A stretch of DNA of 37,554 bases from a virus (taxonomy: Duplodnaviria; Heunggongvirae; Uroviricota; Caudoviricetes). Below the pieces are notes generated by a model. That model did not search any database. It was not told the DNA's origin and saw only the letters and a list, made by a program, of their open reading frames with translations. The stretch lies in IMG/VR virus record IMGVR_UViG_2695420600_000017; one strand, written 5' to 3'. Numbering within the stretch: position 1 is the first letter of the stretch; each line of letters opens with the position of its first letter. This document shows, one piece after another, positions 1 through 37,554 of this stretch. A program made the position numbers and the translations under genes.

Positions 1-330
1 GAACGTCTGGTTCAGCAGATTTGGCGCAACTGGCAGATTGTGGTTCGAGTTCGTAGTCGCTCTGAACTTGCGTTTCTGCTTACAGCGTAGCCTTAGCTCC
101 TTACGAAGACGTGCCAGTCGGTCACGACCAACGATGATGCCATTCTCTGCCAGCTCCGTCTGGAGCCGCCGGGTTCCATATGTTTCGCGAGTGCGGATAT
201 GTGCCACCTTAATCTCCAGTTTTAGCCGCTCATCACTTTGTTTTCTGTCTGAGGGTTCATGCTGTACCCAGTTGTAATAACCGCTCCTGGATACACCAAA
301 TACCTGACACATATAGCGCGGCGATTTTTT
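1..330 (-). mobile_element. IS3-family insertion sequence fragment (transposase OrfB-region N-terminal part, runs off window start; no orfA upstream)
   Basis: Hand translation of minus strand from ATG at 310-312 gives MCQVFGVSRSGYYNWVQHEPSDRKQSDERLKLEIKVAHIRTRETYGTRRLQTELAENGIIVGRDRLARLRKELRL..., the typical IS3-family OrfB N-terminal region before the DDE domain. An A7 run sits just upstream (about 324-331). Family-level resemblance ends near 313-330, where the prophage end repeats begin. Confidence 0.55.
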
Positions 331-1331: not shown

Positions 1332-1470
1332 GGCCGCATAACCTCCTGCTTTGTTGTTGATATCTTTATCACTCAATCGATCGACAAAAACGATCGATTT
1401 GATTTATTTAATTGATACAACAAATAACACGAAATGTCATTAGCGAAAATTTATGAGTTTGATCACTAAT
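1332..1470 (-). promoter_or_regulatory. Putative com-mom promoter/operator region with GATC (Dam) sites
   Basis: GATC at about 1379-1382 and 1392-1395 (within TCGATCGA and CGATCG palindromes) and again at about 1461-1464, upstream of com. In Mu the mom promoter is controlled through clustered GATC sites. Promoter elements themselves not identified. Confidence 0.3.
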
Positions 1471-1587
1471 TTTAAACGGTGCTGTAACGCATAAGTGCTG
1501 AATGATTGTACATTTGAATACCGCAAAGCAAACAAATCAACTAATTTATAGAAGTCAATTGGTTAATTGCCAGCGTAAGAGGCTGCT

Positions 1588-1881
1588 ATGGACAATCATG
1601 TAACGACGAGAAATCGAAAAATGATTGAAAATGCGGAAATCTATAATGATTATTTTTCCGATTATTCAGATGCCTGCAAATACAGTTCGAGTGCGGGAGA
1701 GTTCATATGCTTCAACTTTTTTATTAAATCTTATGTTTTTCCTCCACAGCAAGAAGATGGAGGTGTGCCACCTCCTGAAATCACTTTGCACCGTATAGCC
1801 TCCGTCTCAATGATGGAGCAACAGGCTAATGAGCTGTATAGCATTCTGGGAACGATTCTACAAAAGCGTGAATCGGACTAA
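1588..1881 (+). CDS. Hypothetical protein (97 aa), plus-strand gene in AT-rich accessory region
   Basis: ORF preceded by GAGG 8-10 nt upstream of the ATG and about 200 bp of AT-rich sequence; no recognisable motif. Confidence 0.35.
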   Translation: MDNHVTTRNRKMIENAEIYNDYFSDYSDACKYSSSAGEFICFNFFIKSYVFPPQQEDGGVPPPEITLHRIASVSMMEQQANELYSILGTILQKRESD

Positions 1882-2048
1882 TGATACCGGTTCATTTGCC
1901 TGCCCGGATGGGGAAGCAGGATTGACTGCTCCATAAGCAGCTATATTTCTGAATACGAAATACTATCCAGCGATTACATATGGCTGGATAGCGGCAAAGA
2001 TGTTTTCATTAGTGTCAAACCGGCAGAGGACACCACCGGTTTGTATTG

Positions 2049-2303
2049 TTACATCATGGTACTGTCAGTTCCGGGCTGAGCCGGGTCTGGTTGCTCTGGC
2101 TGCGCGTCGGTTTTCGGCTCATTATCAGCATCACTGGCCGCAACTGCTGGCCCAATAAGTTTTGCCAGCACTTCATCAACGTAAGTGTCGATTTGTGCCT
2201 CAAAATCCTTGCGGACCTGCGCTTTCAGTAATTTATTTACTTCACCGGAATACAGTGCCTGTTTTACCAGGACTTCAGTGACGGTGCCTTTAATCTCTGG
2301 CAT
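2049..2303 (-). CDS. Hypothetical protein (84 aa), helical N-terminus with acidic Pro/Gln-rich tail
   Basis: Strong SD (AAGGAGG) 7 nt upstream of the ATG; an inverted repeat AAACCGG...CCGGTTT at about 2027-2052 overlaps the stop region. Confidence 0.5.
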   Translation of the reverse strand: MPEIKGTVTEVLVKQALYSGEVNKLLKAQVRKDFEAQIDTYVDEVLAKLIGPAVAASDADNEPKTDAQPEQPDPAQPGTDSTMM

Positions 2304-2338
2304 GTATATCCTCCTTATGTGGGAATACAGCCCTGCAA

Positions 2339-2521
2339 TCAGGGCTGGGTCGGGTCTTTTGGGAGCGGAGTTGCCTGCGCTGTTTTACTGAGCTTTTCAG
2401 CTGCTGCGTCATCAATTTTGCGGCGAACATAATTTCTGATGGCCTTATAACCACCGCTCACCAGATATAACGCACTGACCACAGTGCAGAAATAAAGCAG
2501 CATCGTATGAACAAATGTCAT
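2339..2521 (-). CDS. Small membrane protein (60 aa, one predicted TM helix)
   Basis: N-terminal hydrophobic stretch LLYFCTVVSALYLVSGG followed by a basic/charged tail; lies 35 bp upstream of the 84-aa gene on the same strand. Confidence 0.4.
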   Translation of the reverse strand: MTFVHTMLLYFCTVVSALYLVSGGYKAIRNYVRRKIDDAAAEKLSKTAQATPLPKDPTQP

Positions 2522-2686
2522 ATAACCTTACCTTTGATATTGACTACAGAAACAGTTTTCAGCTAAAAAGTAACCGCGTACATAATGGTCTTCTTTGTCA
2601 GAGGTTGTAGCTTTCCTTAATGGGTTTGGAATATCACCCGCCAGTCAACAAATGGCTCTTTGACCGGCGGGATTTTTTTATCCTGC

Positions 2687-4741
2687 TTACGCGTTATTCA
2701 CTTCCACCACGATACTGTCAATCAGTACCGGGTAAGTCGCATTTTTAGTGATATCGGTCACGCGCAACTTGTCTGCCGTAAACGTGCCGACCGGAGACTG
2801 CGACAGCATGAATGGTGTCCCGTCCTTACCATCAATGACCGGCGTCACCTCAATACTGTTGTTACCGGCAAAACGGAAGCCCAGCGTATGCCATTCGTTA
2901 TTAAATGCGCCGAATGACCCCAGCTTCGTGTTCTGCGCCGTGTTTCCTTTGTGATACATCACGTTAAGGTCTGTGGCATCGCTCTGTACGTAGAACGATG
3001 CCAGCAGGTTATGACCGGCATTTCCTTCCAGAGTAACCCCTTGCGGCAGGGCAGAAACCGGCCAGTACAGCGCCAGTGCGTACTGATTAGCCGTAAGCGC
3101 GCCATCGAGTTTAAAACGACAACTGACAAGACCACCTTTACCCAGCAGGTCCGCACCATTACCAGCATCATGCTCAAGGTACCAGGGGGCTCTTCCTGTT
3201 TCCTTGGTCAGTTTCATTGCCTTACCCCCGCTAGCTCCGGCATCATCCACGATTTGAGCCTTGCCACCTCCGGCAGCCCAACCCTGTGGTGTCAACCGTC
3301 CTTCAGACTCAGATGCCCGGTAAGCAAATAGCGTACTCATCGTCGTGGTGTCTGCGGGTGGCGTGGACGGTTTTGATGGTGTATCAGGTGACGGCTTCTC
3401 ATCCGGTGGTGTCACGGTCTGCCCGCGCATCAGTTCAGCCGTGCGCCCTGCATGGAGCATAATAGCTGAGGCCAGACGGTCTGAAATGACGCCCCTGCGT
3501 GCCCATGAGCTGAAATGGCTGTCACGCTGTGTCGAAACAAAACTGCCCTGGGTTCGGGATGCTGCACCGTAATACCCGACAGCCACAATATCCGGGTCTT
3601 CCGCCGGAGCATTCGTTGGCGTGCTCTGTCCATTCTCATCCGTCAGGAACGGTACAAAGAAAATTTTCTGTGCTTCCTTGCCTTTGTAGCCACCGTATAC
3701 TGCCTCATATTTATCGGTGCCAGCGTTTTTCCAGTAATACGTGGTATCACCGCAAATCCACGGCACCGTGGTGGCATTTCCACTCACGCACTGCGCAGCA
3801 AGCGGAGCCAGGTCAGTTCTGAACTGCTGAACCATGGCCGTGAATAAACTATTATGCTGCTGGCTTCCTGAGGCAAGGTCTGCCTCTCCCTGCATCCAGA
3901 CCACAGCCAGAAGTTTGTTTTTCGGGTTTTTCGCCAGCGCGACTTTGGTGCGGCTTACCAGGTCCTGATACAGAGGTTTACCGGCCCCCCAGCGTGAAGA
4001 ATCAGCGGAAGCACCGCTGGCCTCACTGAATGAGCCGTCGGCTCCAGTGGTGAATGCTGACCCGCCACGACAACAGGGCACCAGAAGTATCCCCGCATTC
4101 TGTGGGATATAGGGAAGCAGTTTTTTGGCAATATGCAACCCCTGACCGACAGTCCCGTACTGGCCTTTTGCCAGATCAGCTTTCGGGTGGTTTATCCCGC
4201 TCATATCCTGAACATCATGCAGGCAGTGGTCTGCCGGAATGATGTCGTTGTATGTACACGACGTACCGTTGGGCGTTACCGTACTGCGGCGTGCCAGTTG
4301 CTTAATGCGTGGGTCCGGGCGGTCAAACGAATCCGGTAACGGCAGCCCCTCGCCGTAGGCCATGCCATTTGACTGACCCGCGAGAATGACAACAAAGTAA
4401 TATTCCGGCTCTGAACTGCTGCCATTCGTGCTACCGGAAGGCCCGGCGTTATCCGGTGCATTCCAGTCGGAGGGCGTGAGCGTTCCGGCCACGTCAGATG
4501 TGATTGGAATGATGCCAGTCACGCCTGAACTGGTGATTTCTGCACTGGGATTACCGGATACCGGCATTACCCATAATGGCTCTTTCGTGCTGAAGCGGAT
4601 CACGCAGTCTGCGAAGGTGATCCCCCCTTTATTACCCGAAGGGCGGAAAGGGCTTTCAATAAATGCCACCGTGCCACCGGCAACCTTGACTGAAAACTCT
4701 CCGGGCATGGCGGAGAGCATTTTCCACTTGGAGTCTGACAT
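2687..4741 (-). CDS. Prophage sialate O-acetylesterase, NanS-p-like (SGNH/SASA esterase domain with N- and C-terminal accessory domains)
   Basis: 684-aa ORF with VVILAGQSNGMAYGEG (GQSN catalytic-serine block) and VVWMQGEAD (QGE(S/A)D block), characteristic of sialate 9-O-acetylesterases. Sits just beyond the tail-fibre genes, as nanS-p genes do in E. coli prophages. Family assignment is from motifs, not a search. Confidence 0.7.
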   Translation of the reverse strand: MSDSKWKMLSAMPGEFSVKVAGGTVAFIESPFRPSGNKGGITFADCVIRFSTKEPLWVMPVSGNPSAEITSSGVTGIIPITSDVAGTLTPSDWNAPDNAGPSGSTNGSSSEPEYYFVVILAGQSNGMAYGEGLPLPDSFDRPDPRIKQLARRSTVTPNGTSCTYNDIIPADHCLHDVQDMSGINHPKADLAKGQYGTVGQGLHIAKKLLPYIPQNAGILLVPCCRGGSAFTTGADGSFSEASGASADSSRWGAGKPLYQDLVSRTKVALAKNPKNKLLAVVWMQGEADLASGSQQHNSLFTAMVQQFRTDLAPLAAQCVSGNATTVPWICGDTTYYWKNAGTDKYEAVYGGYKGKEAQKIFFVPFLTDENGQSTPTNAPAEDPDIVAVGYYGAASRTQGSFVSTQRDSHFSSWARRGVISDRLASAIMLHAGRTAELMRGQTVTPPDEKPSPDTPSKPSTPPADTTTMSTLFAYRASESEGRLTPQGWAAGGGKAQIVDDAGASGGKAMKLTKETGRAPWYLEHDAGNGADLLGKGGLVSCRFKLDGALTANQYALALYWPVSALPQGVTLEGNAGHNLLASFYVQSDATDLNVMYHKGNTAQNTKLGSFGAFNNEWHTLGFRFAGNNSIEVTPVIDGKDGTPFMLSQSPVGTFTADKLRVTDITKNATYPVLIDSIVVEVNNA

Positions 4742-5045
4742 CGTCTTTTCTGCCTGTTTCTGAATTAAACAGAGTCAGAATAACAACCGCTGATAAATAT
4801 GTGTTTTGCGGAAATTCAAAAAAAGCATCACGGTACTTTTTGTGACGGAGCCGGTTAGGCAGGAACATAACGACAAAGGATGGACAGGCCAATACGATAA
4901 CCGCATATTACCGGCTTATAATTGATTTAACGATTCATGACGCTGCGGTCAGCATCTGAAAATATGCGTTATTTCAGAAACCCCTTGCCTGTATATGGCG
5001 ATATTATTATTCCTGTTTTTATCATTGATTTACATGGTGATGTTT

Positions 5046-5567
5046 ATGCAACTGATTAATGTTAAACGATATTACCCGGAACAAAAACCCTTTGGTAATG
5101 ATGTACAGTATTTTCAAAGTGAAGATGGTAAGGATTTCTATGAGTCCCTGCCATTATTCACCAAAAAATATAAACTTTGCATAACCCCTGACAGCGGTGT
5201 TATCTGCTCAATATCACAGGATGCTTCGGCGCTGTATCCTGCGGGTTTTTCCGTTGTTGAGACAGACGAATTACCTGAAGGTACTGATATTTCAGGTAAC
5301 TGGAAGTTTGATAATGGTGTCATCTCACAACTCCCGGTTAACTATACCAAAAAAGCGGAAGCACTGCGCCAGTCATATCTTAATCAGGCATATGAAAAGA
5401 TTAATGACTGGAGAACTGAGTTACAGCTGGGCACGATTAGTGATGAAAACAGAGCTGCGCTTACACGATGGATGAAATACATCAGTCAGGTGAAAAAAAT
5501 GGAACTACCAGCGATTAAAAACAAAGCTGAATTTGACGCCATTAAATGGCCGGAGAAGCCTGAATAA
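5046..5567 (+). CDS. Tail fibre assembly protein (Mu U/U'-like, Tfa family), opposite strand to the late operon
   Basis: DISGNWKFDNGV and LQLGTISDENRAALTRWMKYISQV resemble recalled Mu U (DISGKWMFKDGVV, LRLGIISDENKQKLTEWM). Start chosen at the ATG with GGTGATG upstream; the track ORF starts at 4995. Confidence 0.7.
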   Translation: MQLINVKRYYPEQKPFGNDVQYFQSEDGKDFYESLPLFTKKYKLCITPDSGVICSISQDASALYPAGFSVVETDELPEGTDISGNWKFDNGVISQLPVNYTKKAEALRQSYLNQAYEKINDWRTELQLGTISDENRAALTRWMKYISQVKKMELPAIKNKAEFDAIKWPEKPE

Positions 5568-5570
5568 CAT

Positions 5571-5600
5571 AAAGGGTGCTTATCGCACCCTTTTCCTTTA
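5571..5600. terminator. Bidirectional intrinsic terminator between convergent tfa (+) and S (-)
   Basis: AAAGGGTGC-TTATC-GCACCCTTT hairpin followed by a T-rich tract on both strands, in the 34-bp gap between the two stop codons. Confidence 0.5.
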
Positions 5601-5601
5601 A

Positions 5602-6513
5602 TCAGACGGATGAAACTGTGCGCCAGGCATTACCGATATATATCTGCACCGGACGGTAATAAACGCCTCCGATATTATCGGCTGAACTTTTCCCGGTATC
5701 CTGCACGTTAATACCTGAAAGCATACAACCAGAAGGTGCACCATAACTCCAGGACATTTCATTACCTCCGGGTGAATGGTAACTCTGGGCACCAAGCTGA
5801 ACGTTGCTAACGTATTTGTTATCAGCAGTAGCTTCAGTCATACCGGAGGTAATGTATATGTCCTGCGTCCCGTCAAAAGGAACGCCATTAATATTTCTTG
5901 GGGTGGAGAGTTTATTCGCGGCAACGGCGGTGCCGTCCGATGGCAGAGCATTCGCCGCCTTATTCACCGTTTCCCGTAAACCGACGTTATCGATAAAAGC
6001 CCCTTTATCCGGAATGTCTGCGCCGTTCTGCTCCCTGCGCAGGTAACGGTTATCACCTTCGCTTTTGCTGTAAACATCCAGATTATTACGGGCGGTTCCC
6101 TTATTCTCCAGGTCGGCGAGATTCTGATCCTTCGCCAGGGCATTAACGTCACCGGGACCAAGACTGTTTTTTGTGGCAAGCGTCCCCAGACCAAGATAAC
6201 CACGGGCCAGACGCTGGGCCTCCGCACCGGCATCAGCAATTTCTTTCAGGTTATTTTTCCGGGAAAAGGCATTCGCAGCGATAATGGCTTTAATGGACAG
6301 CGTAAGCTGGTTTAACTGCGCCTTATCCGGCTGAATACTGGCTTCAGCCAGAATATTCAGCAGTTCGGCCTGGAGAATATTCAGCCAGTCCTGACCAATC
6401 CAGCTGATACCTTTTTGTCCGTCACCTTCGGTAAACCAGGTGGTGGTATTACTCTGCGCCGGTGCCAGCGCAGGCATATTCGCCACGCCGGAATTATTAT
6501 CAACATGAAACAT
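5602..6513 (-). CDS. S: Tail fibre protein (Mu S-like; constant N-terminal part plus short variable C-terminal part)
   Basis: Follows the R-like gene in Mu order. 303 aa versus about 500 in Mu. A gix-like site lies at about codon 176, the position of the Sc/Sv junction in Mu. Confidence 0.7.
   Translation of the reverse strand: MFHVDNNSGVANMPALAPAQSNTTTWFTEGDGQKGISWIGQDWLNILQAELLNILAEASIQPDKAQLNQLTLSIKAIIAANAFSRKNNLKEIADAGAEAQRLARGYLGLGTLATKNSLGPGDVNALAKDQNLADLENKGTARNNLDVYSKSEGDNRYLRREQNGADIPDKGAFIDNVGLRETVNKAANALPSDGTAVAANKLSTPRNINGVPFDGTQDIYITSGMTEATADNKYVSNVQLGAQSYHSPGGNEMSWSYGAPSGCMLSGINVQDTGKSSADNIGGVYYRPVQIYIGNAWRTVSSV
5971..5996. other. gix-like (Gin/Hin/Cin/Pin-family) crossover-site sequence inside the tail-fibre gene
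   Basis: TTCCCGTAAACCGACGTTATCGATAA matches the recalled Mu gix site TTCCTGTAAACCGAGGTTTTGGATAA at 22 of 26 positions, including the central GA. Confidence 0.45.
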
Positions 6514-7073
6514 TAAATAGTCTCCTCTTCATGGCTGTTTGCATAAACGTAAATAAACGTCTGCCATGCAGGCTTATAACGGTTCAGAATACATTCCAGC
6601 GCACTGCCTTCATAAATACGCAGCGGCGTGAGAATATCATCCAGCACATTCATATTCCGGTAGCCGGTTTCACTGTTAATCGTGACAATACTGACCCACT
6701 GCGAATCCGGTGAGGGCTGAATGTCAATCTGATAACCAAACTCCGCCGCAAACCGGATATAAAATTCACGGTTCAGCGAGGGCTTCATCCGGTATTTATT
6801 GCCGGCATAACGCTGTCGCTCCGTGAGGGTGGCTCCGGCCATATCACACTCGGGAAGCCCGAGATAACGCTCCCAGTCTTCCAGCAGCAGGCGCGACGTG
6901 TCAGGGAAACGCTCGGCAAGCAGCTGTTTACCCGTCCAGGATACACGCGCTGTCGAATGACTGAGGCCCAGACATAATGATGCCAGTACGGATGACGGAC
7001 GCTTGTCCCATGCCAGCCCGTCAGGCAGTAACTGCAACAGGGCGCGCTGATGTGGGGTCAGGGTTACAGCCAT
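6513..7073 (-). CDS. Tail fibre-associated baseplate protein (Mu gp48/R-like)
   Basis: 186 aa, located between the baseplate J-like gene and the tail fibre gene as in Mu. Confidence 0.65.
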   Translation of the reverse strand: MAVTLTPHQRALLQLLPDGLAWDKRPSSVLASLCLGLSHSTARVSWTGKQLLAERFPDTSRLLLEDWERYLGLPECDMAGATLTERQRYAGNKYRMKPSLNREFYIRFAAEFGYQIDIQPSPDSQWVSIVTINSETGYRNMNVLDDILTPLRIYEGSALECILNRYKPAWQTFIYVYANSHEEETI

Positions 7074-8146
7074 GTGATTTCTCCTACCGTCAGCAGCTCA
7101 CTGTCTCCCGCCTGAACTGACGTCAGCGGACTGCGCACTTCAAAATCCTCCAGATTTTTCACCCCCGCCACAGCACGCCAGAAAGACGACGGCAGAACCA
7201 GACCGCCGGGCCGGGATTCGTTGTATAACAGGTCGGTCAGCGCCTGTTTTACGGCCGCCTGATTCTCCGGTGTTTTCGGGATGATCCTGATGCTGAAGGG
7301 CACCGGCTTATTGGTCAGTTTAAACACGGTCACCGTCGGCCCCAGAGGCTGTCCGACAGGCTGGCCGGTCGCCGGATCATCATGACTGCGGATATAATCC
7401 GCCACCCGCTGAACATCACCGTCACCGGGGAAAATATCCGGGTTATTATCCTGAACAAACGTTACCCCCACGCTGCCCGCCTGCGGCCATTCCGGGCGGC
7501 ACCATGCCCGCGTCACGCCCGGCACTTCACGCGCCCAGCGTTCAAAATCATACTGCGTGCCGCCGGACGGTGGATTCTGCACCCGGAAAACCAGACGGGA
7601 AAGCAGCTCCGGCACGGTTTCCACATCCGCACCACCGGTGATCCCCGTTCCTGTCACCGTGGCCGTCTGGTTGATCCCCGCCTGCGGTGTGATAAATGTC
7701 AGTTTTGTCCCTGCCGGGGCATTCCCCGCACGACCGGCACTTTCGGCTTCCACACTGACATTCAGCGTACCGGCCTTACCGGTCAGTGAGGTGGTGATAC
7801 GGTAAACCACGCCATCACTTCGCTGGAGAAGCACACCTTCCTTGATCCCCGCATCCGTGGTCAGCATCAGCTGAACCGGCCCGTCCCCCCGAGAGGCAGG
7901 CTTACGCATGACGCCCCAGAATGCACAGTGTTTCAGCAGTTCGGCTTCATCGGCTTCGGTCGGGATGATCTGACGCGCAATCCAGGCCAGATGCTCATGC
8001 TCCTGAGCAGATAACCCTGCCTGAGCGTAAGCAATGGCATTCAGGGTGGTTTCATTCACACCCGGCTGCGAGCCGGGCAGGCGCTGGCTGATATCCTGCT
8101 GTGTCTGCGTGATTAACTGTGCCAGCGGTAAAGGCTGATAAGGCAT
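7064..8146 (-). CDS. Baseplate J-like protein (Mu gp47/W-like)
   Basis: 360 aa; position and size as Mu gp47; overlapping start/stop coupling with neighbours. Confidence 0.75.
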   Translation of the reverse strand: MPYQPLPLAQLITQTQQDISQRLPGSQPGVNETTLNAIAYAQAGLSAQEHEHLAWIARQIIPTEADEAELLKHCAFWGVMRKPASRGDGPVQLMLTTDAGIKEGVLLQRSDGVVYRITTSLTGKAGTLNVSVEAESAGRAGNAPAGTKLTFITPQAGINQTATVTGTGITGGADVETVPELLSRLVFRVQNPPSGGTQYDFERWAREVPGVTRAWCRPEWPQAGSVGVTFVQDNNPDIFPGDGDVQRVADYIRSHDDPATGQPVGQPLGPTVTVFKLTNKPVPFSIRIIPKTPENQAAVKQALTDLLYNESRPGGLVLPSSFWRAVAGVKNLEDFEVRSPLTSVQAGDSELLTVGEITWL

Positions 8147-33994: not shown

Positions 33995-34222
33995 TTAGCT
34001 GACTTGTTTCGCACCAACAGAACGGCATATTCCGCTGTAAACTTCTGTCGCACCTTCGCGATCAAGTCCGGCAGATATCACCATTCGTGTGCGGTCATTA
34101 AATTCAAAAAGTAAATCGCCACATTCTTTATTTTCGGCCAGTGAAATCACCTTCACGTTATCGAAATTAACCAGGTAAAAGCGTCCGTAAATATCAGGAA
34201 TATTAAATACCGCCATAATCAC
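33995..34222 (-). CDS. Small protein immediately downstream of B (position of Mu kil)
   Basis: 75 aa; positional analogy only. Confidence 0.4.
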   Translation of the reverse strand: MIMAVFNIPDIYGRFYLVNFDNVKVISLAENKECGDLLFEFNDRTRMVISAGLDREGATEVYSGICRSVGAKQVS

Positions 34223-35160
34223 ACCTGTGAGAGTAATTCAGGGTTGGTATAAACCTCTTTAAAGGCCGCATTAATATGTTTTTCTGTCAGCGCCGCGCCT
34301 TCACCGCTGGCGGTGAGCCACGCCTGGTTAAGCGTATGTGTCAGAACGCGTAACGCTCCCGGCTTTTCAGCGATAGCCTGCATGACGGCCAGCTCGGCCT
34401 CACCACTGATCCCCCACGCCATGGCAATGGCCAGCACATCCGCCTTTTTGGCCTTGCGAAGTTGTTTTGTACGGGCAAGACGGCTGAACAGGCGCGATAA
34501 ATCATCAAAGGCGCGGCGTCCACCTTTAAACAATCCGCGCGGGTTACCAATAAGCACCATCCCGATCCCCGTGGCGTCCTGAATTGCCCGGAGTTGCTCC
34601 AGACCGTCAATACCAAGATGATCCGCCTCATCCACAATCACCAGTCCACGCGTTCCCATCAGGCGACGGCGGATGGCGCGGGATAATGCCCCTTTGTTCG
34701 CGCGGGTGTAATCAATCCCCAGCGCATCGGCCAGCTCCAGCAGACACTCCGTGACGCTGGAGTGCGCGGGTGACAGGGTGATCATCCAGGTGTTTGGTTG
34801 CTCCTGGCAGTAATTACGGGCAGTGGCCGTTTTACCCACACCCGGTACGCCCACAATAACGTTAATACAGCCCATCAGGCGAACCGCCTGAAACAGTGCG
34901 CGCAGCTCCTGGACTGTCTGAGTTTCCACAAACTGCGGCGGTTCCGGCAGTGCGCTTTGTTTATTCCAGTTCTCATACCAGGAGCGCAGGGAAGCAGCCA
35001 CAGCAGCGTTATCGCCTTTATATTTTCCCTTACGGAAAGCCGATAATGTGCCGTCGGAAATTCCCGCCTCTCTGGCGATGGCATACTGCGTCAGTACGCC
35101 GCCATCAATAAGTTCATCAATGGTCTTGATTACATCGTTAATATCGGTCATATTATTCAC
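34219..35160 (-). CDS. B: MuB-like ATP-dependent target-DNA activator (AAA+)
   Basis: 313 aa; Walker A GVPGVGKT and Walker B LVIVDEADHL; N-terminal HTH; directly downstream of the transposase. Confidence 0.9.
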   Translation of the reverse strand: MNNMTDINDVIKTIDELIDGGVLTQYAIAREAGISDGTLSAFRKGKYKGDNAAVAASLRSWYENWNKQSALPEPPQFVETQTVQELRALFQAVRLMGCINVIVGVPGVGKTATARNYCQEQPNTWMITLSPAHSSVTECLLELADALGIDYTRANKGALSRAIRRRLMGTRGLVIVDEADHLGIDGLEQLRAIQDATGIGMVLIGNPRGLFKGGRRAFDDLSRLFSRLARTKQLRKAKKADVLAIAMAWGISGEAELAVMQAIAEKPGALRVLTHTLNQAWLTASGEGAALTEKHINAAFKEVYTNPELLSQV

Positions 35161-35233: not shown

Positions 35234-37321
35234 TCAGGCCAGCGGATCACTTTCTTTTAATTTCGCTTCGAGCAGTTGCAATCCCCGCTGGAAATTACGC
35301 TCGTATTCTTCATCAGGTTCATCGTCAGCGACCGGTTGCTGAACGGTCACCGTATTACCCACAGGGCGGTATATGTTTTCCAGCCAGGGCTCCTGCGGCT
35401 TGTGCTCCAGCACGTTGACAACCTCATCCTCGGCATCACGGATTTTTTCCTCTGCGCGTTTACGCATGCCTTTAAGGCGCTGCTGCTGTTTGTAGTATTC
35501 CGCGCTGACAGGGAAGGCTTCGCGTTTATTGCCGTCCCATACCGCCTCGCAAATCACGCTGCCATCCGGGCGGCGCACGGTAATTCGTTCGGCATCATGA
35601 ATGTCATAGCTGATAAGTACCTTACGGCCATGCTCGTCACGCAGCTCGGGCGCGTAGTAAATATTATTCAGCCAGCGTATTTCACAGCGTCTTACAGGGC
35701 GCTCCACCATCGGCCGGAACATATCCCGCAGTTCAACATCGGACAGCCATTCAATTTCCGTGTCCTCTTCCGCCAGGCGTTTTTTTCTGAACTCCGCCGG
35801 GCTGTAATGTTTACCGTTCGGCTTCATGGGTAATTCATCGTGCGGCCGGTTGTTGTACCACTCAACACCGTCACGAATGGCATCAATCAGTTCAGACCAG
35901 GACGGTAAATCACGCATCGCTGACTGCTGCCGGGCGTTCAGCCGTTTGCCCTGTTGCAGGGCACTGAATGCCGAGCGTAAATCGCGGTTGGTTTTACGTA
36001 ACGTCTCGCGATCTGCTCCTTTCCCGAAATAGGTGCGGTATTTACGGGCTATGCGCATCGGTAATGTGCGGTTAAGCCGTTCGATAATGCCCCGTCCCTG
36101 CGGATTACCGGCAATCCCTGTCGGGTGATTAATCCCCAGTCGTGGCAGTATCCCCACAATCTCCTTATCCAGGACGTCGGCGGTTTCCCCGGAGCCATTA
36201 TCCGAGTAATACAGAAACGGTTTGCCATGATGGCGAATACCGTGCTGTATGGCACCGGCTACGGCGAAAACATTTTCAGCCAGGTCAAGGCTCCAGCCCA
36301 CCACAAAGCGCGTGCCACCGTCGATAACAAAGGTCACTTCCGGTGCGAATGGCCGCCCGTGAACCGGGTGCGCGCATTTCAGCTTCATGCCGTGACCGTC
36401 ACCAATCCAGACATAATTCACCGGCATTTTTGACCAGTCGCGGCGCGTGAATCCCTCAAGCTGGCGGTATTCACTGCCGGTAACCCGTCCTTTTTGTTTC
36501 ACCACTTCCGGCAGTTTCTTCATTGCGCGGCGAATGGTGTCATAAGACGGCATGATATCGAGCATATAAGGCTCATCAGCGTGCCGGTGCTGCCATTCGG
36601 CAACAAAATCCTCGTAAGCCTCGGTCATTGGTCGGCCGTTTGACTGGCGATACTGCGCCAGAAATTCGGGCAACCAGTTAATATCTTCGGCTTTTATTTC
36701 CTGGCGTTTACCTGGTGCCAGCAAAAGCAGGCGTTCAGCAGCGTTCTGTGCCTTATTAAAGGCCGCAATCCAGCGTTTCAGCGTGATTTCACTCAACACG
36801 CGACTGTTTCCCTTTCTGGCGTTCGCTATCTCAACCATTGCCACAATGCGCTCATCCAGTTGCGAGTGTGACAGGCGGTCAACGATGAACCGGATAGCTT
36901 TAGCGCAGCTGAAACCGGGTTGTTGCGTGAATTTCAGCACCTCACTGACGATCGCAATGCGTGCGTCTGCCACCTGGCGCTGGTTTTCAGTCAGGGCATT
37001 GAGGCGTTCGACCATCAGTTGTGGTGATCCGCGATATGCCTCCACCGCATCAACCACGGCAGACGAGCGTCTGGCCTTTGTCACCACCGGAGCCGGTGAT
37101 TCATCGGCTTTTTGCGTCATCAGTTGCAGGGCATAACGTTCGCGTAATGCCTGCTGTGTCACTTCAGGTAAACAGTCAATGCTGTATTCAAAACCTTTAG
37201 CGCCTTTCTTGCGGCGTCTGCTGGTTTCGCTGGTTGCATACTTCCTGATTGAATAGCGAACGCCTTGCTCCGTTCCCGGCATCCCCGGTAATCCAACCAG
37301 TTCTTTGACTGAAGCAAACAT
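35234..37321 (-). CDS. A: MuA-like DDE transposase
   Basis: 695 aa between ner and B; size and position as MuA (663 aa recalled). Confidence 0.9.
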   Translation of the reverse strand: MFASVKELVGLPGMPGTEQGVRYSIRKYATSETSRRRKKGAKGFEYSIDCLPEVTQQALRERYALQLMTQKADESPAPVVTKARRSSAVVDAVEAYRGSPQLMVERLNALTENQRQVADARIAIVSEVLKFTQQPGFSCAKAIRFIVDRLSHSQLDERIVAMVEIANARKGNSRVLSEITLKRWIAAFNKAQNAAERLLLLAPGKRQEIKAEDINWLPEFLAQYRQSNGRPMTEAYEDFVAEWQHRHADEPYMLDIMPSYDTIRRAMKKLPEVVKQKGRVTGSEYRQLEGFTRRDWSKMPVNYVWIGDGHGMKLKCAHPVHGRPFAPEVTFVIDGGTRFVVGWSLDLAENVFAVAGAIQHGIRHHGKPFLYYSDNGSGETADVLDKEIVGILPRLGINHPTGIAGNPQGRGIIERLNRTLPMRIARKYRTYFGKGADRETLRKTNRDLRSAFSALQQGKRLNARQQSAMRDLPSWSELIDAIRDGVEWYNNRPHDELPMKPNGKHYSPAEFRKKRLAEEDTEIEWLSDVELRDMFRPMVERPVRRCEIRWLNNIYYAPELRDEHGRKVLISYDIHDAERITVRRPDGSVICEAVWDGNKREAFPVSAEYYKQQQRLKGMRKRAEEKIRDAEDEVVNVLEHKPQEPWLENIYRPVGNTVTVQQPVADDEPDEEYERNFQRGLQLLEAKLKESDPLA

Positions 37322-37323
37322 AA

Positions 37324-37554
37324 TTACGCGACCTTACGAATGTAGCGGCTGGGCCAAATCTCCTCGGGCGGCACCCCCAGGCATTCCGCGATAATCCCCT
37401 CATACTTGGGAACATGGCGGTATACCGCGTTGTACAGATTGTTCTGACCCACGCCAGCTTTACGGGCCAGCGCCCTCATGCTTCCTTCTCTGGCTCTGAC
37501 TTCCCCCAAAATTCTTTGAGGATGCCAATCAGGCTTAACTTCATTTCTCGCCAT
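37324..37554 (-). CDS. ner: Ner-like DNA-binding regulator (Nlp/Ner family)
   Basis: 76 aa; ends with EEIWPSRY as in recalled Mu Ner (PEVIWPSRY); directly upstream of A. Confidence 0.8.
   Translation of the reverse strand: MARNEVKPDWHPQRILGEVRAREGSMRALARKAGVGQNNLYNAVYRHVPKYEGIIAECLGVPPEEIWPSRYIRKVA

What the first reader, a model, noticed from the sequence alone, without database searches (positions are those of the whole stretch)
4995..6513. Relic of an invertible tail-fibre segment: gix-like site inside S, inverted tail-fibre assembly gene, no recombinase
A 26-bp sequence at 5971-5996 matches the recalled Gin/Hin-family crossover site at 22 of 26 positions and lies at about codon 176 of S, where the Mu G segment begins. 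The part of S beyond it is only about 127 codons, and the only tail-fibre assembly gene is on the opposite strand, converging on S across a shared terminator. No serine-recombinase ORF is present anywhere in the window. Either the switch was frozen by deletion, or it is driven in trans by a recombinase elsewhere in the host with a second site I could not find.
Basis: partly seen in the sequence, partly recalled or inferred. Interest (0 to 1): 0.65.

Follow-up and report, generated by a model that had tools for sequence, protein, structure and literature searches.

The report
Deletion-frozen Mu-type tail-fibre inversion switch
A Mu-like prophage of E. coli once carried a DNA-flipping switch that swapped the tip of its tail fibre, but an 870-base deletion removed the flipping enzyme and one of its two target sites, so the fibre is locked in one form; this is ordinary decay of a well-known system.

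Summary
The window is a Mu-like prophage on the - strand. The 26-bp site at 5971-5996 differs from Mu gixR (read from NC_000929) at 4 of 26 positions. It covers S codons 173-181, aligned with Mu's constant/variable junction, and is the only such site in the window. The tfa gene (5046-5567, +) is a U/U' homologue that converges on S over a hairpin.

No recombinase ORF exists. However, a 22-codon 3' stump of a gin gene (4828-4894) directly abuts a 19-codon 3' stump of a silent fibre cassette (4895-4959).

E. coli relatives carry 870 bp in exactly that gap. It holds a Gin homologue (76% identical to Mu Gin), a second inverted site with the same central dinucleotide, and a complete alternative cassette. 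Both orientations of their 1.3-1.4-kb segment occur in complete genomes.

The window therefore holds a switch frozen by a non-site-specific deletion. The same junction is in 8 of 5,426 complete E. coli genomes, at several insertion sites. The "driven in trans" alternative is not supported, because no partner site remains.

This is a known kind of system and of modest interest. One puzzle remains: the family has a single tfa for two alternative tips, antisense to the tail operon in the locked state.

The parts
5602..6513 (-). Tail-fibre gene S (303 codons). The constant part Sc is roughly 5984-6513. The locked variable cassette ('alpha') is 5602-5983.
   Evidence: phrog_1833 at 1e-161. 47% identical to Mu S over residues 1-198, and the C-terminal tip aligns with Mu S 434-503. 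PDB 5yvq_A at 9.5e-49.
5971..5996 (.). Surviving gix-type crossover site ('site A'), central dinucleotide GA at 5983-5984. It is now only coding sequence (FIDNVGLRE).
   Evidence: 22/26 to Mu gixR. Unique in the window. Identical in all seven E. coli chromosomal relatives fetched, including one whose Sc has dS about 1.7. The eighth relative, a Mu-like phage inserted in a Stx phage (L009), has one mismatch.
5820..5991 (.). Stretch homologous to the inner inverted-repeat arm of intact relatives. The partner arm is deleted here.
   Evidence: In L001 the arms 5765-5936 and 6990-7161 are 172 nt and 92% complementary. No such inverted repeat exists in the window.
5571..5593 (.). Hairpin between the converging stop codons of S and tfa, a probable bidirectional terminator.
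   Evidence: Terminator-like site with a 9-pair stem. The same element is found in L001.
5046..5567 (+). Tail-fibre assembly gene (tfa, U/U' homologue). It is intact, and antisense to the tail operon in the locked state.
   Evidence: PF02413 and phrog_136. Mu U and U' comparisons. 5yvq_B. The start is taken from the RefSeq relatives.
4895..4959 (+). 3' stump (19 codons plus stop) of the silent alternative cassette (Sv', 'delta' type).
   Evidence: blastn shows window 4894-5129 = L001 6059-6300 at 88.8%. Sequence read.
4828..4894 (-). 3' stump (about 22 codons, with an internal stop) of the Gin-type invertase gene. The deletion junction is at 4894/4895.
   Evidence: tblastn of L002 Gin residues 162-191 hits window 4917-4828 at E 1.4e-4. 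blastn shows window 4699-4894 = L001 5000-5188 and L002 5000-5194. Junction sequence.

Best explanation
The window carries the remains of a Mu G-segment-type tail-fibre switch that was inactivated by one 870-bp deletion.

In intact relatives, a Gin-type serine invertase is encoded just outside the segment. It recombines two inverted 26-bp sites. Site A lies inside S at codons 173-181. Site B lies between gin and a promoterless cassette. Recombination flips a 1.3-1.4-kb segment and exchanges the last ~125 codons of S.

In the window, the deletion runs from gin codon ~167 to ~20 codons before the end of the silent cassette. Its ends share about one base of homology, which points to illegitimate recombination. 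It removed the enzyme, site B and nearly all of the alternative tip. By analogy with Mu it also removed the Fis-dependent enhancer in the 5' part of gin.

S is therefore locked as Sc fused to the 'alpha' tip, so host range is fixed. Site A persists as ordinary coding sequence. The single tfa of the segment stays intact but faces the tail operon.

Shown: the anatomy, the deletion end points, the inversion in relatives and the spread of the frozen form. Inferred: loss of the enhancer, that the phage is still infectious, and how tfa is expressed.
For: 1. The site matches Mu gixR at 22/26 and lies at the aligned Sc/Sv junction.

2. Relatives L001 and L002 (88-94% identical in the flanks) have extra DNA in the gap. 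It holds a 188-190-aa recombinase 76% identical to Mu Gin (2e-104), site B (TTCCTGAAAACCTCGGTTTACGGGAA) and a complete cassette. Site B is inverted relative to site A and has the same core (GA/TC).

3. The window keeps stumps of both gin and the cassette on either side of one junction at 4894.

4. Inversion is real in relatives. L005 is collinear with flipped L002 over 2,703 bp, whereas native L002 gives three HSPs with the middle 1,355 bp reversed. The gamma cassette is the silent one in 18 genomes and the beta cassette in 4-5. Strain DLI.5a holds both states.

5. The same junction occurs in 8 of 5,426 complete E. coli genomes, including a lineage about 4% diverged with a different expressed tip. 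Complete copies sit in citF and flgK of JE86-ST05, and the window copy has a third, different flank.

6. There is no other recombinase and no second site in the window.
Against: Nothing contradicts the deletion itself. The weak points concern its consequences.

- The enhancer's position is taken from Mu (Kahmann et al. 1985, own knowledge), not tested for this family.
- No reads are available to show that the window's segment never flips.
- Infectivity of the frozen phage is inferred only from its presence in several strains and insertion sites.
- tfa divergence between the two frozen lineages (dS 0.41) far exceeds that of the neighbouring Sc (dS 0.025). Recombination has therefore reshuffled this region since the deletion, and the history is not a simple vertical one.
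Confidence: 0.93

Rival explanations
1. The switch is still live, driven in trans by a Gin/Pin-type invertase encoded elsewhere in the host, using site A and a second site not yet recognised.
For: A near-identical frozen prophage coexists in JE86-ST05 with a third Mu-like prophage that has an intact recombinase gene (WP_000904914.1), so the enzyme can be present in trans. Site A is undamaged.
Against: The best other candidate in the window has 7 mismatches (4551-4576). It is in direct rather than inverted orientation, has a different centre, and is at chance level in shuffles. The true partner site lies inside the deleted 870 bp. The alternative cassette is reduced to 19 codons, so a flip would yield no functional fibre. 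The cis enhancer, in the gin 5' region in Mu, would be gone too (own knowledge).
Confidence: 0.03
2. The match is plain coding conservation between S homologues, and this lineage never had an invertible segment. Relatives gained gin and a cassette by insertion.
For: The site lies in a conserved protein motif (FIDNVGLRE versus Mu FIQNLGLQE).
Against: Truncated 3' ends of gin and of the silent cassette flank the junction in the window. This is what a deletion leaves, not an empty insertion site. The site is invariant at the nucleotide level in a relative whose Sc is only 50-80% identical per 30-nt window, as expected for a recombination site.
Confidence: 0.01
3. The deletion is an assembly artefact, a collapse at the inverted repeats of an intact segment.
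For: Invertible segments with 86-172-nt inverted repeats can confuse assemblers (general knowledge).
Against: The junction lies in neither the inverted repeats nor the sites. The identical junction is present in 8 independently sequenced complete genomes, with about 4% divergence between two groups.
Confidence: 0.01
4. The deletion was made by the invertase itself, through site-specific recombination between site B and a pseudo-site.
For: Serine invertases can occasionally use secondary sites (general knowledge).
Against: Neither end point lies at a gix-like sequence. The left end is in gin codon ~167 and the right end is ~300 nt inside the cassette. The junction shares only about 1 nt.
Confidence: 0.02

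Closest known systems
Phage Mu G segment with Gin and gixL/gixR (NC_000929)
   Same: The host genome type is the same: a Mu-like transposable prophage with MuA, MuB, gp47/48, Com and Mom. The crossover site is at the same place in S and matches at 22/26. The relatives' invertase is 76% identical to Gin and sits just outside the segment. S, U and U' homologues are present.
   Different: The window has no gin, only one site, and a 19-codon stump of the second cassette. In intact relatives the segment is 1.3-1.4 kb rather than 3 kb. Variable parts are about 125 codons rather than about 330. There is one tfa rather than two. The inverted repeats are 86-172 nt, against the 34 bp stated for Mu and SfMu in PMC4406740. 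An esterase/DUF1378/DUF826 block lies between gin and com-mom.
Phage SfMu of Shigella flexneri (PMC4406740)
   Same: It is a Mu-like phage for which the authors suggest the G segment may no longer invert.
   Different: SfMu keeps gin, both repeats and all four genes. The suspected defect is a 1-bp change beside the crossover dinucleotide. Here the switch is physically deleted.
P1 C segment/Cin and e14 P segment/Pin, and the Pin-type recombinases of E. coli cryptic prophages (own knowledge; PinQ/PinR papers were only listed, not read)
   Same: They belong to the same family of serine invertases acting on 26-bp sites at the constant/variable junction of tail-fibre genes, with tfa genes inside the segment.
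   Different: Those systems retain the recombinase. This was not compared at sequence level here.
Salmonella Hin/hix flagellar switch
   Same: It uses the same enzyme family and 26-bp site architecture with a Fis enhancer (own knowledge).
   Different: It flips a promoter rather than a coding cassette, and the recombinase lies inside the segment.

Membership tests
Gin/Cin/Pin-type invertible tail-fibre segment (Mu G-segment type) | Serine invertase gene adjacent to the segment | tested here: not met
   The window holds only a 22-codon 3' stump at 4828-4894. Relatives L001, L002, L006, L008 and L011 have the gene, which in L001 is 76% identical to Mu Gin.
Gin/Cin/Pin-type invertible tail-fibre segment (Mu G-segment type) | Two 26-bp crossover sites in inverted orientation with identical central dinucleotide | tested here: not met
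   The window has one site only. Relatives have sites A and B inverted, with core GA/TC.
Gin/Cin/Pin-type invertible tail-fibre segment (Mu G-segment type) | Crossover site at the constant/variable junction of the tail-fibre gene | tested here: met
   S codons 173-181 align with Mu S 166-174, at the annotated G-segment boundary.
Gin/Cin/Pin-type invertible tail-fibre segment (Mu G-segment type) | A promoterless alternative C-terminal cassette in opposite orientation | tested here: not met
   Only 19 codons plus the stop remain (4895-4959). Relatives have complete cassettes of about 120 codons.
Gin/Cin/Pin-type invertible tail-fibre segment (Mu G-segment type) | Fis-dependent recombinational enhancer in cis (in Mu, within the 5' part of gin) | not testable with these tools
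   The enhancer's position is known for Mu only from the literature (own knowledge). The whole 5' part of gin is absent from the window. The relatives' gin 5' region is 67-82% identical to Mu's in 60-nt windows.
Gin/Cin/Pin-type invertible tail-fibre segment (Mu G-segment type) | Both orientations occur | tested here: inconclusive
   No reads are available for the window itself. All 8 genomes with the deletion show the same orientation. Both states are found in gin-positive relatives.
Mu-like transposable prophage | MuA transposase, MuB ATPase, Mu-type baseplate (gp47/gp48), Com/Mom, and insertion at unrelated chromosomal sites | tested here: met
   Pfam hits for Mu-transpos_C, Phage-MuB_C, Baseplate_J, Phage_Mu_Gp48 and Mom. 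Copies lie in citF and flgK, and the window has a third flank.
Caudovirales tail-fibre assembly protein (Tfa; Mu U/U') | PF02413 match above the curated cut-off and homology to Mu U/U' | tested here: met
   74.1 bits against a cut-off of 22.1. U at 5e-22 and U' at 5e-27. 5yvq_B at 4e-16.

The most novel reading that the evidence does not exclude
In this prophage family, one tfa gene inside the invertible segment serves both alternative fibre tips and is expressed whatever the orientation. Expression would come from a promoter of its own or one outside the late operon; alternatively the tfa-distal tips fold without it. This would explain why a phage locked in the 'tfa-antisense' state has still spread to several strains and insertion sites. 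It would make the family a one-chaperone variant of the two-chaperone Mu/P1/e14 design.
Probability: 0.4. Interest if true: 0.4.

Novelty: new member of a known kind. Interest (0 to 1): 0.3.

Why it matters
The finding has practical value for annotation. A gix-like site plus an inverted tfa does not by itself mean phase-variable host range. This prophage has one fixed fibre tip, and the short stumps at 4828-4959 are what diagnose this.

It also gives a natural matched pair for experiments. Frozen and gin-positive versions of the same phage coexist in one strain, JE86-ST05. They could be used to measure what the switch contributes to host range.

Finally, it raises a small open question about how a single chaperone gene serves two alternative tips. 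Nothing here challenges current understanding of serine invertases.

Tried and rejected
- **Second site.** I searched with the exact site and with Mu gixR at up to 3 mismatches. I then searched with four reference sites at up to 9 mismatches, with shuffled controls. Only site A stands out. The 7-mismatch hit at 4551-4576 was rejected because it is in direct orientation, has the wrong centre and is at chance level.
- **Inverted repeats in the window.** Only a trivial 14-nt pair inside S was found.
- **Promoter for tfa.** Sigma-70-type scans of the window and of two intact relatives found nothing above shuffle expectation. The relatives have no + strand site upstream of tfa. The one site spanning the deletion junction (4881-4909, 9/12) is not significant.
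- **Selection on tfa after the freeze.** dN/dS is 0.12 between the two frozen lineages. However, tfa dS (0.41) is about 16 times that of the adjacent Sc, so recombination has replaced alleles and the test does not date to after the deletion.
- **tRNA.** A 'tRNA-OTHER' is annotated in a near-identical prophage, but ARAGORN finds none in the window.
- **Literature.** A search for the gix sequence returned nothing. The Mu sites were read from the genome record instead.
- **Gin-mediated deletion and assembly artefact.** Both were considered and rejected; see the rival explanations.

Full report
**What the window is.** ORF listing and profile searches show a Mu-like prophage lying on the - strand. 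The components found are:
- MuA transposase, 35234-37321
- MuB, 34219-35160
- baseplate J/gp47, 7064-8146
- gp48/YmfQ, 6513-7073
- a 303-codon tail-fibre gene S, 5602-6513
- a + strand tail-fibre assembly gene
- a 684-aa SASA-esterase/DUF6645 protein, 2687-4741
- Mom, in the ORF 440-1372

Homology to near-identical prophages starts at window position 311-312, so 1-310 is flanking host DNA.

**Checking the observation.**
- *The site.* The 26-mer at 5971-5996 is present once, and no shuffle produces a match at up to 3 mismatches. I did not rely on the recalled gix sequence. I fetched Mu (NC_000929) and read the sequence at its annotated G-segment boundaries. gixL is TTATCCAAAACCTCGGTTTACAGGAA and gixR is TTCCTGTAAACCGAGGTTTTGGATAA. 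The window site differs from gixR at 4 of 26 positions.
- *Its place in S.* On the S strand it covers codons 173-181, FIDNVGLRE. This aligns with Mu S 166-174, FIQNLGLQE, the Sc/Sv junction. About 126 codons follow, against about 334 in Mu.
- *tfa.* The gene passes Pfam PF02413 and resembles Mu U (29%, 5e-22), U' (33%, 5e-27) and PDB chain 5yvq_B. Its real start is probably 5046. A 9-bp-stem hairpin at 5571-5593 separates the two converging stop codons.
- *Recombinase.* A tblastn with three Gin proteins finds no recombinase gene in the window.

**What relatives show.** A megablast of 4700-6600 against 5,426 complete E. coli genomes hits 232 of them. Many carry a 'recombinase family protein' between the DUF6645 gene and tfa. 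In STEC299 (L001) and NCCP13905 (L002), the order on the prophage strand is:
1. S
2. tfa, on the opposite strand
3. a promoterless cassette of about 120 codons upstream of tfa
4. a second 26-bp site, TTCCTGAAAACCTCGGTTTACGGGAA
5. a 188-190-aa recombinase
6. the DUF6645 gene

The recombinase is 76% identical to Mu Gin (2e-104). Sites A and B are inverted relative to each other and share the central dinucleotide (GA on one strand, TC on the other). They bound a 1,317-1,381-bp segment whose ends are 86-172-nt inverted repeats.

Site A is identical in all seven E. coli chromosomal relatives examined. One of these (L008) has an Sc part only 50-80% identical per 30-nt window, with dS about 1.7. The eighth relative, a Mu-like phage inserted in a Stx phage (L009), has one mismatch. 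In L008 the site sits in an island of 87-93% identity.

**The switch works in relatives.** I built an in-silico flip of L002 between the two site centres. Six genomes contain the predicted Sc-gamma junction over its full 720 nt, and a seventh at 80% coverage. In STEC2018-553, S is followed by a co-oriented tfa, then the other cassette reversed, then the recombinase. TOE17 is collinear with flipped L002 over 2,703 bp at 98.7%. Against native L002 it splits into three HSPs, with the central 1,355 bp reversed. Counting gin-proximal cassettes gives 18 genomes with gamma silent and 4-5 with beta silent. Strain DLI.5a has one prophage in each state.

**What happened in the window.** blastn places window 4699-4894 on L001 5000-5188. 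That stretch holds the DUF6645 start, the intergenic region and the last ~22 codons of gin, whose stop is at 4828-4830. Window 4894-5129 falls on L001 6059-6300, which holds the last ~20 codons of the silent 'delta' cassette, the spacer and the start of tfa. The 870 bp between them are missing.

The gin stump now has an internal stop. The junction reads CCAATA|CGATAACCGC and shares about one base between the two parental sequences. It lies at no gix-like sequence. This points to an illegitimate deletion, not a site-specific event. It removed gin codons 1 to ~167, site B and about 100 codons of the alternative tip. It also removed whatever cis elements lie in the gin 5' region. In Mu that region holds the Fis-dependent enhancer; this is from the literature and was not tested here.

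A scan with four reference sites at up to 9 mismatches finds no partner for site A. The next best hit has 7 mismatches, is in direct orientation and is at chance level.

**Spread of the frozen form.** The 231-nt stretch spanning the junction is found over at least 80% of its length in 8 of 5,426 genomes:
- Three are at least 99% identical to the window over 4700-6600.
- M1, M3, M18 and CI5 are about 4-5% diverged and express a different tip (beta), yet share the same junction.
- JE86-ST05 holds two complete copies, in citF and flgK. It also holds a third, gin-positive Mu-like prophage.
- The window copy has yet another flank.

The deletion is therefore real, not recent noise, and compatible with continued transposition. 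Inferring continued infectivity goes beyond the data.

**Mechanism.** The intact system works like Mu's. Gin dimers bound at two inverted sites exchange strands at the central dinucleotide and swap the 3' end of S. In the window the system cannot operate. S is fixed as Sc-alpha, and site A survives only because it is coding sequence and the loss is young. Even with Gin supplied in trans, as is possible in JE86-ST05, there is no inverted partner and no complete cassette to bring in.

**An unresolved point.** Unlike Mu, P1 and e14, the segment in this family has only one tfa, next to the gin-proximal cassette (gamma, delta or epsilon). In the orientation seen in the window, and in most relatives, tfa lies beyond the shared hairpin and antisense to the late operon.

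The tfa N-terminal half is the fibre-binding part in Mu Tfa according to PMC9608196. It is nearly identical between loci with different adjacent cassettes. This fits a generalist chaperone.

Crude sigma-70 scans find no + strand promoter upstream of tfa. Mu-type late promoters would not be detected by such scans. How tfa is expressed, and whether the alpha and beta tips need it, remains open.

**Comparison and novelty.** This is a degenerate member of the Gin/gix class. It fails four of the six defining features tested (invertase, second site, second cassette, and by inference the enhancer), while its relatives have the first three. The nearest published parallel I found is SfMu, where a 1-bp change in one repeat is suggested to block inversion (PMC4406740). 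I found no description of this E. coli family or of its one-tfa layout in the searches made. That is a limited search, not proof of absence.

**Verdict.** The kind of system is known, and interest is modest.

Noticed in passing
L001 5760-7166; L002 5766-7108; L006 3060-4433: Intact relatives have a 'mini-G' segment of 1.3-1.4 kb with two ~120-125-codon cassettes but only one tfa. In the commoner orientation tfa is antisense to the tail operon, beyond a shared hairpin. How it is expressed is unknown.
   Followed up: partly
window 1373-4741 (annotation from L003 and L010): A block encoding a SASA-esterase/DUF6645 protein (684 aa), DUF1378 and DUF826 sits between the gin position and com-mom. These gene types are, to my knowledge, typical of lambdoid/Stx prophage late regions, and they are absent from Mu itself.
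   Followed up: no
window 1-311; L003; L010: The same frozen prophage lies in citF and in flgK of JE86-ST05, while the window copy has a different, IS-like flank. That strain also has a third Mu-like prophage with intact gin (L011).
   Followed up: partly
L008 4085-4500: The silent cassette here is a Mu-S-like 'epsilon' tip. Its stop codon is followed by the 3' tail of the 'delta' cassette, a scar of cassette replacement by recombination.
   Followed up: no
window 5046-5567 versus L007 3847-4368: tfa differs far more between the two frozen lineages (dS 0.41) than the adjacent Sc does (dS 0.025). The tfa/tip region is therefore a recombination hot spot even without the switch.
   Followed up: partly
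window 4551-4576: TTACCGGATACCGGCATTACCCATAA lies inside the esterase gene and has 7 mismatches to site A. It is in direct orientation with centre GG. It is judged a chance match.
   Followed up: yes
window 37190-37554: Homology to the JE86-ST05 citF copy stops at 37190, inside the transposase N-terminal region. The early/immunity end is therefore mosaic between otherwise 99% identical prophages.
   Followed up: no
L010 (NZ_AP022815.1 684000-725500): About 15 of 58 prophage genes are annotated as frameshifted in this assembly, including tfa. The window's versions of the ORFs I read (S, tfa, DUF6645, baseplate J/gp47) are intact. The frameshifts may be assembly errors rather than decay.
   Followed up: no
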